Positions 4,466-42,385 of a stretch of DNA of 64,000 nt are shown in pieces. The stretch comes from Octopus vulgaris (Eukaryota), in the NCBI GenBank assembly GCA_951406725.2, contig OX597819.1:81530001-81594000 (forward strand). Reading direction: 5' to 3'. The notes beneath the pieces were generated by a model that was given only the letters and a program-made list of their open reading frames with translations, was not told where the DNA came from and searched no databases. Numbering within the stretch: the first letter of the stretch is position 1; every line of letters begins with the position of its first letter. The translations under genes and the position numbers were made by a program.

Positions 4466-5190
4466 CTATGTAAAGTCCTTTCTTTTTTATTTCAGATTCT
4501 TCAGTTTTTGAGTGAACCATGCTAATAGCTTTTGAATGAAAATAGCCCACCTAGACTTTGTTTTCAGAAAATGAAGGATAATGATATACATTGAGTATAT
4601 ATTTAACAGAAAACCATAATAATATTATAACATTTATTAACATAATGGATTATTTAGCCACATGTGCTTCATTTCGACAGATAACTTCAAAAACCCTATT
4701 ATAACCCAACTGTTATATCAGAAGCATATATTGTTGTTAAATGGTTGAATTACGAGAGTAGAAAAACAGCCAACACCTGATGAAGGGTCGTTCTTTATGT
4801 TGTTTGCCTTGTTTTCCATTTGTGTCTTTCATTGTCCAAAAAATTAGTTCATATTCCATGTACTTGCACTTCATATTTTTTGTTGTTGTATATGTTTCAT
4901 GACATCCTGTGCCCACATATGCATATATATATACATACGTATAGATTCCATGACTAATAGGGTTTTTGAAGTTATCTGTCGAAATGAAGCACATGTGGCT
5001 AAATAATCCATTATGTTAATAAATGTTATAATATTATTATGGTTTTCTGTTAAATATATACTCAATGTATATCATTATCCTTCATTTTCTGAAAACAAAA
5101 TCTAGGTGGGCTATTTTCATTCAAAAGCTATTAGCGTGGTTCACTCAAAAACTGAAGAATCTGAAATAAAAAAGAAAGGACTTTACATAG
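4466..5190. repeat. Inverted duplication, 236-bp arms (4466-4701 / 4955-5190)
   Basis: The arms are reverse complements with about 2 mismatches seen. The spacer is 253 bp. Confidence 0.95.
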
Positions 5191-5324
5191 AATAACAGAA
5201 ACATAACAATGGTGTTGCCATAGTGTGCAAACCAGCCGGAAAAAGTTTTATCAAAATCAATTACCAGAAAACCAAGAAATCCTGAATTTCCCTCTAAACC
5301 TATTAGTGTGGTTCTGGGTACCTA

Positions 5325-38244: not shown

Positions 38245-40065
38245 GTATGTCAAAGAACAGTCACCTTATTTGCCATTGCACAAGAACAACAGCTGGTTAT
38301 TCAGGCTGGTTTGTTGGGTGAATTTAATATGCAGAAGGTTAGCTAGAATAAATAAATAATAATTACAAAGAGTTCTTTTTATTTATTTATTTTTATTTAT
38401 TTATTTATTTATTTATTTATTTTTCAAGATTCTATTTCTATAAAGATTTATTTCATTCATTGAAAAATCTAAATTCTTTACAGTTTCCAAAAGATTTCAT
38501 GCAATTTTTAAAAATTTTCCGCTCAGTTCATTCTGAGTGAATACAGCCATGTAATTTCGACTATCTTCAATTTTTCTATAGTTTTCTGCTTTCCTGAACC
38601 ATTTCTATGTGTATAGAGAGATTGGAGTATTTACCTAGTGTTGTCAGTAACAGGCCGGGACGTATGTCAGCTCGTTAGGAATGGGATGGGTGAATGAATA
38701 ATTAAGGCTATTATAGAAGAATACCATTATAGAGGAAAGGGTTAGAGGTGAAGTGTACTTGCTAACCTAGCTTTTTTTGTTGCCAACAGGGATTACTCAA
38801 ATTTATATACAGAATTCAAATGATAAAACTATATTAACATTATAACAAGCATCTTAAAGTAAAAAGATAAACAACGATTTTTATAAGGAATTAGGTAAAT
38901 AAAGGTGTATCCTGTTCTTTATAAACTCATTTAAATCTTTTCTATAAGAAAATCTTTTCTTAGATACACCTATCCTCCACTTTTCTCAGCTGTAATGTAT
39001 ACCTACTAGGTGCTGGTGGAGCCCTCACTCACTCTATCTGTCATATCCTGGATATTCTATCATCCCCGATGATTTGAATGACCGGGTGTCTAAGTCTTCT
39101 CAAGGCTAAATAAGCACCTAAAACTATTAGTAAAATCATAATACACGTTACCATGCTTGCTTGTAAGAGAGCTGGCTGTACTTGACTGCAGTTATATTTC
39201 ATTTATAAGCGCAAGTGTGGGTGTGTCGTTAAGTAGTTTGCTTTCCAACCACATTCTTTTAAGCTCAACCCACTGTCAGACTCCTTCGGCAGGTGTCTTA
39301 TCCTAAAGTCCCAGGCTGATATAATGCTTATATATATATATATATATATATATATATATATATAATATTATATTATATTATATTATATTATACAATATGT
39401 ATGTATATACTATATATTATATAATATATATATATATCATATCATATTTTATATATATATATATATAGGTGCAGGTGTGACTGTTTGGTTAGAAACTTGC
39501 TTCCAAACCATATGGCTCTAGGTTCAGTCCCATTGTATGACACCTTGAACAATTGACTTCTACTATAGCCTCAAATCGACCAAAGCTTTGTGAGTAGATT
39601 TCGTAGGTTGGAAACTGAAAGAAGCCTATCATATACATATATATATATATATATATATATATATATATATACACACATCGATATATATATATATATATAT
39701 ATATATATATATATATATATATATATATATATATGTATGTGTGTGTGTTTGTGTCCACCTCTTTGTATGTGTTTGTCCCCAACTATCACTTGACAACCAG
39801 TGTTGGTGTGCTTACATCTTCATAAGTTAGCAGTCCAGCCAAAGAGGCTAATAAAATAAGTACCAGGCTTAAAAACGTAAGTACCTCAGTATAGCAACAG
39901 TCTAATGGCTCTAACAAGTAAAAGATAAAGGATATATATGTGTATACATATGTATGAATATATGAGTGGTATGTTTGTGTTTCCATGTCTTGACATTGAC
40001 TGGTTGTTGTAAATGAATAGCATTCAGGTCTAATATTCTGCAAAATTATGTCTATCCATGGGGAT

Positions 40066-42385
40066 ATATTATCTTACTTGGAAACAGGCAAGGGTTGGCA
40101 AAAGGCCATGGAAATCTCCTTCCAACCCATGCAAACATAGAATAGTGGACGTTAATATGAGGATGATGATCGTGATCATGATCATGATGATATCACCATC
40201 ATCATGACTCCAGAAGAATGAAAGACTTGACAAGTTAGAAATAGCAGCCAAATATCACTCAGATCACATGCTACCATCTTAAAATTGAAATGTATTGGAT
40301 AATGCAATCCATGATATACTGTCTGGGAAAAAATAAAAAGAAACACATAGGATGGTTATGGCTGGAAAGCATTTGATTGTAAATGTACTCCACCAGGGCT
40401 GACTTGGAGTTAAACAACAACATATCCTCCAGCCCAAACTTGAAGGCCATGCCACCCATGTTGGCATGAAAACCTGACAATAAAGCAGATGTAAACAAGA
40501 ATCAAATAATAACATTCTATGAAGTTATTCCATTTTAAGTTTTGCATAAAAAGGATTTGCTCCCTAAATTAGTTTATCCTTTTAGCATTTAAACCAGCCA
40601 TATTTGGCCCAAATATTCTATTTGGGCTCCTGCACCGAACCTACAATTAATTTAAAATGATGTGAATAAATAAGCATTAAGGCGGCGAGCTGGCAGAAAT
40701 GTTAAAACGCCGGGCGAAATGCTTAGTGGTATTTCATCTGCTGCTACGTTCTGAGTTCAAATTCCACCAAGGTCAACTTCGCCTTTTATCCTTTCAAGGT
40801 CGATTAAATAAGTACCAGTTACGCACTGGAGTCGATATAATTGACTAAATCCGTTTGTCTGTCCTTGTTTGTCCCCTCTGTGTATAGTCCCTTGTGGGCA
40901 GTAAAGAAATAAGATAAGCATTACATTTGACAGAGTAGTCTGAATGCTAAAGAGTTAAAGAAATAATATGCTGTAGCTATGTAGTTAAGTTTGCTTCCAA
41001 CCTTATGGTTTTGGGCTCAGTTTCACTGCATGGCACCTTGGACGAGTGTTTTCCACTATAGCTCTAGGATGACCAAAGCCATGTGAGTGGATTTGGCAGA
41101 TGGAAATTGAAAGAAGCCCGTCCATGTGTGTGCATGTTTGTGTGTATGTGTGTTTGTGTGTATACATATCATCATCATCATCATCATCGTTTAACGTCCA
41201 TTTTCCATGTTGGCATGGGTTGGACGGTTTGACTGAGGTTTAGAAAGCCATCAGCTCCACTAGGTTCCAATGTGATCTGGCAATGTTTCTACAGCTGGAT
41301 GCCCTTCCTAACACCAACCACTCCAAGGGTGTAGTGGGTGCTTTTTACATGCCACCGGCACAGGAGCCAGTCAGTCAGGCCTGGCATAGATCATGTTCAG
41401 AGAGTGCTTTTTACAAGCCATTGGCACAGGAGCCAGTCAGAGGGTACTGGCATTTCAGATGGTGCTTTTTACACACCACCAGCACAGAAGCCAGTCAGGT
41501 GGCCCCTGGCATTGATGATGTTAAGATAGTGCTTTATACATGCCACAGGCATGGGAGCCAGTCAGGAGGCACTGGCATTGGCGACATTCAGATGGTGCTT
41601 TTTACATGCCAATAGCACAGGATTCAGTCAGGCAGACTAGGCATCAACCACATTCAGATGGTGCTTTTTACATGCTACCAGCACAGGAGCCAGTCAGAAC
41701 GTAGCAGCAGATGAAATACCACTAAGCATTTCGCGCGGCGTTTTAACGTTTCTGCCAGCTCGCCGCCTTAATGCTTATTTATTCACATCATTTTAAATTA
41801 ATTGTAGGTTCGGTGCAGGAGCCCAAATAGAATATTTGGGCCAAATATGGCTGGTTCAAATGCTAAAAGGATAAACTAATTTAGGGAGCAAATCCTTTTT
41901 ATGCAAAACTTAAAATGGAATAACTTCATAGAATGTTATTATTTGATTCTTGTTTACATCTGCTTTATTGTCAGGTTTTCATGCCAACATGGGTGGCATG
42001 GCCTTCAAGTTTGGGCTGGAGGATATGTTGTTGTTTAACTCCAAGTCATCCCTGGTAGAGTACATTTACAATCAAATGCTTTCCAGCCATAACCATCCTA
42101 TGTGTTTCTTTTTATTTTTTCCCGGACAGTATATCATGGATTGTATTATCCAATACATTTCAATTTTAAGATGGTAGCATGTAATCTGAGTGATATTTGG
42201 CTGTTATTTCTAACTTGTCAAGTCTTTCATTCTTCTGGAGTCATGATGATGGTGATATCATCATCATGATCATGATCACAATCATCATCCTCATATTAAC
42301 GTCCACTATTCTATGTTTGCATGGGTCGGAAGGAGATTTCCATGGCCTTTTGCCAACCCTTGCCTGTTTCCAAGTAAGATAATAT
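40066..42385. repeat. Inverted duplication, ~690-bp arms (40066-40754 / 41694-42385)
   Basis: Near-identical reverse complements. The ORF track shows mirror ORFs (40271..40498- vs 41950..42177+; 40069..40251- vs 42197..42382+). Confidence 0.95.
41330..41693. repeat. ~58-bp tandem repeat inside a (GAT)n-tailed repeat
   Basis: Units GGTGCTTTTTACATGCCA..GGCACAGGAGCCAGTCAGG..CTGGCAT occur about 6 times. The array resumes at 42386. Confidence 0.85.

What the first reader, a model, noticed from the sequence alone, without database searches (positions are those of the whole stretch)
4466..42385. Five independent local templated duplications (190-690 bp, donor within ~2 kb) in 40 kb
Seen: inverted pairs at 4.5/5.0 kb, 10.8/11.8 kb and 40.1/41.7 kb, and direct non-tandem pairs at 5.3/7.2 kb and 13.7/15.6 kb. 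The copied segments are arbitrary (they cut through SINEs, a LINE remnant and unique DNA), lack TIRs and tails, and differ in divergence, so they arose at different times. Inference: a recurrent break-repair or template-switch process patches breaks with nearby DNA. All five fall in the CpG-depleted part of the window.
Basis: partly seen in the sequence, partly recalled or inferred. Interest (0 to 1): 0.72.

Follow-up and report, generated by a model that had tools for sequence, protein, structure and literature searches.

The report
Repair scars copied from nearby DNA
Five 190-690-base stretches of what is likely octopus DNA each have a close copy within 2 kb, likely left when chromosome breaks were patched by copying neighbouring sequence; this process is known from vertebrates, and such copies turn up throughout this genome, possibly more densely.

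Summary
All five pairs exist at the stated places (0.8-7.4% diverged). Donor and copy can be told apart in each. Three copies (A, D, E) interrupt dispersed repeats, losing about 10-30 host bases, with 1-4 base microhomology or short filler. That is the signature of repair-mediated duplication (Pace et al. 2009, vertebrates). A 1.6-Mb systematic sample gave 29 clear and 9 unsure events of 50 bp or more, against about 2 expected from dispersed repeats. That is roughly 20 per Mb, half inverted, some 98-100% identical, so the process is genome-wide and recent. There is no link to CpG depletion (p=0.70). The data show at least two age classes, not five. Five in 64 kb is a Poisson tail (40-200 such windows expected), with ordinary flanks. 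Density far above vertebrate figures (0.08-0.65 per Mb of TE) is plausible, but my method-matched count (1-3 events) is too small to settle it. The scan noted the same process elsewhere in this genome (e1-9529136).

The parts
4466..4701 (+). Pair A copy (acceptor), inverted, inserted into a dispersed ~700-bp repeat
   Evidence: Host flanks collinear in 19 of 19 family loci; about 9 host bases lost, 2-bp microhomology at left, about 5-bp filler at right; junctions bridged in other runs
4955..5190 (-). Pair A donor, inside a truncated inverted-ended (DNA transposon-like) element
   Evidence: Family alignment runs through both ends; private 11-bp deletion shared with the copy
4243..4946 (.). Host repeat interrupted by copy A (Penelope-like label recalled; no Rfam hit)
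4941..5322 (-). One-ended fragment (about the first 400 bp) of a 1.3-1.5 kb element with 200-270 bp terminal inverted repeats; donor of A and left neighbour of copy B
5325..5532 (+). Pair B copy (acceptor), direct; joins the transposon end to a retroelement 3' stub
   Evidence: junctions not bridged in the pieces shown
5533..5573 (+). Stub of an (ATG)n-tailed retroelement: about 20 bases plus tail; 2-bp exact (5-bp near) microhomology with the donor
   Evidence: Only 1 of 38 motif-matched tails in the fetched DNA is this short
7160..7367 (+). Pair B donor (unique DNA plus SINE part; the SINE continues past 7367)
10806..11034 (+). Pair C copy (acceptor), inverted, next to an 18-bp minisatellite; no host repeat found
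   Evidence: left junction bridged in 3 of 4 runs and right in 4 of 4, including the most distant organism laid
11782..12011 (-). Pair C donor (the SINE continues past 12011)
   Evidence: 159 family hits run through this end
13740..13930 (+). Pair D donor, in an old dispersed repeat (LINE-like remnant by eye)
15640..15830 (+). Pair D copy (acceptor) in the (CA)n middle of a SINE, followed by about 26 bp of filler with no local source found
   Evidence: Host collinear in 56 loci, median gap 24 bp
40066..40754 (+). Pair E donor: retroelement 3' end, unique DNA and a SINE 5' part
   Evidence: 250 hits run through the right end; segment found at two places only
41694..42385 (-). Pair E copy (acceptor) inside the 66-bp minisatellite of a dispersed element; 4-bp and 1-bp microhomology, about 30 bp (modulo the unit) lost

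Best explanation
The five pairs are real local copies and are likely repair-mediated duplications: a germline break was likely resected, one end likely primed at 1-5 bases of microhomology on DNA 0.25-1.7 kb away in either orientation, copied 190-690 bases and rejoined, which would explain the small host deletions and filler at the junctions. Shown here: the copies, the donor-to-copy polarity, the interrupted hosts and junction signatures (A, D, E; partly B), and recurrence across the genome at about 11-16 per Mb (100 bp or more) or 20-27 per Mb (50 bp or more). Inferred: the break, the sister-chromatid or looped template, and the pathway (SDSA-like or microhomology-primed synthesis). The copies are likely neutral scars, and five in one window is likely the tail of a genome-wide process.
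For: Polarity and hosts. Reality: contigs from other runs bridge both junctions of A and C. Recurrence: 51 locally private pairs in 160 x 10 kb against about 2.0 expected from the between-locus rate; after curation 29 clear and 9 unsure events, 15 inverted and 14 direct among the clear ones, median 119 bp, median gap 428 bp, identities 85-100%. Match to Pace et al. 2009 (PMC2671141): donor under 5 kb away, mean 162 bp, maximum 619 bp, microhomology + deletion + filler the commonest class, no polyA.
Against: No empty orthologous allele was seen. C has no recognisable host and no clear junction signature. B's junctions were not bridged in the pieces shown, and B joins a retroelement stub at a transposon end, which fits TE-coupled capture. 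D and E were not checked against reads. Microhomologies of 1-4 bases can arise by chance and were not tested against a null. Sample curation was manual.
Confidence: 0.75

Rival explanations
1. TE-coupled capture: many copies form while a transposon or retroelement inserts or cuts, its free end being finished by copying local DNA (or, for B, by the reverse transcriptase jumping from the element's RNA to a local template).
For: B's copy replaces all but about 20 bases of an (ATG)n-tailed element and starts at a transposon end; 1 of 38 tails is that short. In the sample, direct pairs flank exactly one SINE (L073, 162 bp; L220, 119 bp) or one inverted-ended element (L102, 274 bp).
Against: A, D and E sit in the middle of old hosts with small deletions and no new element at the junction. 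Only about 3 of 29 clear sample events have the flanking-element geometry.
Confidence: 0.15
2. Replication template switching (FoSTeS/MMBIR-like) at stalled forks, favoured near microsatellites, rather than repair of a two-ended break.
For: Multi-segment events in L045 and L068. One copy only abuts a microsatellite in 12 of 38 events against 6.7 +/- 2.4 at random (p=0.022).
Against: The outcome cannot be told from break repair by sequence. The microsatellite test is single, post hoc and weak, and none of the window's five scored in it.
Confidence: 0.2
3. The pairs are terminal repeats (TIR or LTR) or independent insertions of dispersed TE families.
For: A lies within a TIR family whose two ends are 82-85% alike. 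Such pairs do occur in the sample (one LTR pair, two TIR rows) and were dropped.
Against: Copy A is 99% identical to its donor, shares its private deletion and has ends internal to the element. C, D and E have only two full-length places among the scored candidates.
Confidence: 0.03
4. Assembly artefacts.
Against: A and C junctions are bridged in runs from other samples and organism labels. Copies carry transition-rich differences (38 of 50). The allele pattern of copy B occurs in contigs of two other runs.
Confidence: 0.04

Closest known systems
Repair-mediated duplications (Pace, Sen, Batzer, Feschotte 2009, PMC2671141; whole-text parts 1-4 of 8 and keyword passages read)
   Same: Non-tandem copy of 50 bp or more, donor under 5 kb away, acceptor interrupting a TE, junction microhomology, deletion and filler, no polyA, spread of ages.
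   Different: Surveyed in vertebrates only, at 0.08-0.65 per Mb of TE under strict filters. Here it is a likely mollusc with about 20 per Mb under a looser self-alignment method. E (692 bp) exceeds their maximum of 619 bp. A would fail their two-copy filter.
Doublets / short paired duplications (Thomas et al., as described in Pace 2009; original not read)
   Same: Short local non-tandem duplicates attributed to imperfect break repair.
   Different: Under 100 bp and nearly identical; these five are 190-690 bp.
Templated insertions by SDSA, polymerase-theta end joining or FoSTeS/MMBIR (recalled; search listings only)
   Same: Microhomology-primed copying from nearby DNA, sometimes from several templates.
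   Different: Pathway not assignable from sequence. Theta-type inserts are recalled as usually much shorter and closer.

Membership tests
Repair-mediated duplication (Pace 2009) | Donor within 5 kb and more than 50 bp away; copy of 50 bp or more | tested here: met
   5 of 5; gaps 253-1709 bp, lengths 191-692 bp
Repair-mediated duplication (Pace 2009) | Acceptor interrupts a TE whose two halves rejoin within +/-30 bp | tested here: met
   3 of 5: A (19 loci), D (56 loci), E (6 loci). B has a repeat stub on one side only; C has no host found.
Repair-mediated duplication (Pace 2009) | Junction microhomology, deletion and/or filler | tested here: met
   A: 2-bp microhomology, about 9-bp deletion, about 5-bp filler. 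E: 4-bp and 1-bp microhomology, about 30-bp deletion. D: about 26-bp filler. B: 2-5 bp microhomology. C could not be scored.
Repair-mediated duplication (Pace 2009) | Copied segment present at only two places | tested here: inconclusive
   Met for C, D, E among the best 40 candidates scored. Not met for A, a piece of a dispersed family, though its local origin is shown by private alleles. B checked only against fetched loci.
Repair-mediated duplication (Pace 2009) | No polyA/T tail or target-site duplication of retroposition | tested here: inconclusive
   None seen at A, C, D, E. B adjoins an (ATG)n-tailed stub.
Repair-mediated duplication (Pace 2009) | Empty orthologous site in related genomes | tested here: inconclusive
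   C is present in all four runs laid. One joint 4465 to 4752 in the most distant run has a 25-base side inside a repeat and cannot be assigned to this locus. Paralogous empty sites stand in for A, D, E.
Repair-mediated duplication (Pace 2009) | Formation by SDSA at a double-strand break | not testable with these tools
   Needs induced breaks or repair mutants
Terminal repeats of a TE (TIR/LTR) | Pair ends coincide with element ends and recur as a unit elsewhere | tested here: not met

The most novel reading that the evidence does not exclude
This genome carries about 30,000-75,000 local repair patches, several- to thirty-fold denser than reported for any vertebrate and still forming (copies 98-100% identical), with a minority made at transposon and retroelement ends. 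That would point to an unusually template-prone germline repair in octopus and make it a natural model for this mutation class.
Probability: 0.35. Interest if true: 0.58.

Novelty: new member of a known kind. Interest (0 to 1): 0.33.

Why it matters
The class is known, and these five show no sign of function. What could matter is the rate. If a method-matched survey confirms a density well above vertebrates, local templated repair is a major source of small structural variation and of close inverted repeats in this lineage. It would also give tens of thousands of dated events for studying germline break repair in an invertebrate.

Tried and rejected
CpG link: rejected. Regional hotspot: the 200 kb either side held 2 events of 100 bp or more and 4 of 50 bp or more, an ordinary rate (only pairs within each 10-kb stretch were counted). 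Gene body: 0 of 77 candidate ORFs hit Pfam at 1e-3 (77 sent, drawn from the 85 plus two TE-like ORFs), so a host gene is neither shown nor excluded. No RNA holder listed. Rfam on 4200-5700 gave 0 hits. No local source for D's filler. A Pace-style interrupted-TE pipeline was noisy with my sample-derived repeat library: of 524 interruptions in 0.52 Mb, 2 were local and not TE-covered, 1 of them a tandem cluster; it recovered A and D but not E. With, 1-3 events qualify. Uncovered B junctions are not taken as absence, since contigs drop such paths. The joint 4465-4752 in run X13 is not counted. at 86% likeness was swamped by repeat contigs over A and B. Small chromosomes C25-C29 were not sampled. 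Six literature searches listed no cephalopod or mollusc paper on such duplications; the library is partial.

Full report
Observation. Self-BLAST with simple repeats masked finds all five pairs at the stated places: A 4466-4701/4955-5190 inverted, 2 mismatches in 236; B 5325-5532/7160-7367 direct, 7 in 208; C 10806-11034/11782-12011 inverted, 17 in 229; D 13740-13930/15640-15830 direct, 13 in 191; E 40066-40754/41694-42385 inverted, 11 in 689. The window is G000:C6:81530001-81594000 in a 2.8-Gb genome. 'Octopus', and the repeat names SINE, LINE and Penelope-like, are recalled labels or come from earlier scan notes; no call tested them.

Not dispersed elements. Genome searches return the whole E, D and C segments at two places only; other hits cover just their repeat parts (best 40 candidates scored each). 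A is a fragment of a 1.3-1.5 kb element with long terminal inverted repeats. Its copy is 99% identical to the donor against 82-88% for family members, shares the donor's private 11-bp deletion, and has both ends inside the element. B was compared only with fetched loci, none of which covers it in full.

Anatomy. In each pair an older repeat runs through the end of one copy, marking the donor. Copy A interrupts a ~700-bp dispersed repeat whose flanks are collinear in 19 of 19 fetched family loci; about 9 host bases are lost, with 2-bp microhomology at left and about 5 bases of filler at right. Copy D sits in the (CA)n middle of a SINE (56 loci collinear, median gap 24 bp) with about 26 bases of filler that has no local source. 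Copy E sits in a 66-bp minisatellite of a dispersed element, with 4-bp and 1-bp microhomology and about 30 bp lost (6 loci). Copy B starts at the end of the transposon fragment that donated A and ends on a ~20-base stub plus (ATG)n tail; 1 of 38 motif-matched tails in the fetched DNA is that short. C has no recognisable host.

Reads. I left out the best holder as a possible source. In the contig pieces shown, C's left junction is bridged in 3 of 4 runs and its right in 4 of 4, including the most distant organism laid. A's left junction is bridged in 3 of 4 runs and its right in 1 of 4. No shown piece bridges B's junctions. Two runs have contigs matching copy B at 5325-5451 with no difference but apparently carrying the donor's flank; this is either a collapsed bubble or a single ancestral copy. 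No trustworthy empty allele was seen.

Ages. Divergences are heterogeneous (chi2 31.0, df 4, p=3e-6). Pairwise, A, B and E are not separable (p 0.09-0.53), nor are C and D (0.85), nor B from C or D. So there are at least two age classes; five independent times are not shown.

Genome survey. I took 160 evenly spaced 10-kb stretches from C1-C24 and C30. The filter kept pairs of 50 bp or more, 85% identity or more, 50-5000 bp apart, at least 3 points better than any match in another locus. It kept 51 rows, against about 2.0 expected from the between-locus rate (316 such pairs). I dropped 13 rows: 1 LTR pair, 7 tandem or array rows, 2 shared TIR rows, and 3 merged into multi-segment events. That left 38 events, 29 clear and 9 unsure; one unsure event later proved to interrupt a repeat in 27 loci. 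Clear events are 15 inverted and 14 direct, median 119 bp, median gap 428 bp, 85-100% identical. Edge-corrected rates are 11-16 per Mb (100 bp or more) and 20-27 per Mb (50 bp or more), which extrapolates to roughly 30,000-75,000 in the genome.

Cluster and CpG. At the 100-bp rates, five or more in 64 kb has p = 0.0009-0.0045, or 40-200 windows per genome by chance. With a post hoc class as long and young as these five (9 sample events), about 3 windows are expected. The flanking 200 kb is ordinary. The window is therefore in the tail, and mild local clustering (A with B) is not excluded. CpG-poor loci (55 of 160) hold 11 of 29 clear events (p=0.70), and all five falling in the CpG-poor part has probability 0.22. 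One copy only abuts a microsatellite in 12 of 38 events (29 clear sample, 4 neighbour, 5 window) against 6.7 expected (p=0.022); this is a weak post hoc signal to which the window's five do not contribute.

Mechanism. The most likely route (0.75) is break repair in which a resected end primes at microhomology on nearby DNA, copies a few hundred bases and rejoins. Copies, polarity and junction features are shown; the break and the pathway are inferred. Rivals are fork template switching, TE-coupled capture (best for B and for three sample pairs that flank exactly one element), TE terminal repeats, and artefact.

Known work. Pace et al. 2009 (PMC2671141; parts 1-4 of 8 and keyword passages read; supplements not seen) describe this class: 824 human cases within 5 kb, mean 162 bp, maximum 619 bp, microhomology + deletion + filler commonest, 0.62 per Mb of TE in human and 0.19 in zebrafish. 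Their filters are stricter than mine. Applied roughly to my 0.52 Mb of repeat DNA they leave 1-3 events, or 2-6 per Mb; against the human figure, two events give p=0.04 and three give p=0.004. An excess is suggested, but its size is unknown. Other papers were seen as search listings only. Six searches listed no cephalopod study. Earlier scan notes report the same process elsewhere in this genome; I had reached this reading before seeing them.

Verdict. A real feature and a new member of a known kind; interest 0.33. The open question worth pursuing is the genome-wide rate.

Noticed in passing
L073:1189-1879 and L220:7292-7762: Direct repeats of 162 bp and 119 bp flank exactly one SINE each, like giant target-site duplications.
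   Followed up: partly
L102:7846-8820: A 274-bp direct repeat flanks a ~420-bp inverted-ended element, with about 10 bp of filler at one end.
   Followed up: partly
L045:4712-6009 and L068:7305-8515: Multi-segment local copies (two overlapping inverted templates in L045), suggesting serial template switching.
   Followed up: no
L216:3103-3295/5171-5363: A 193-bp inverted local copy with 100% identity: very recent and a candidate polymorphism.
   Followed up: no
window:60667-62484 (+): 605-aa open frame that looks like a Penelope-type reverse transcriptase plus GIY-YIG nuclease by eye; no Pfam hit at 1e-3.
   Followed up: partly
window:35374-36141 (-) and 63645-63938 (-): ORFs resembling a LINE C-terminal region and a DDE transposase end (recalled); no Pfam hit.
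   Followed up: partly
window:46000-64000: CpG-undepleted island (o/e 0.85) within about 250 kb of CpG-poor DNA; contains a 1.36-kb (TA)n-like array at 55627-56985.
   Followed up: no
L043:1680-8402: LTR pair of 937 bp, 98% identical, 4.9 kb apart; excluded from the counts.
   Followed up: no
window:7160-7286: Contigs of two other runs carry the copy-B alleles next to what appears to be the donor flank: a collapsed bubble or a different donor haplotype.
   Followed up: partly
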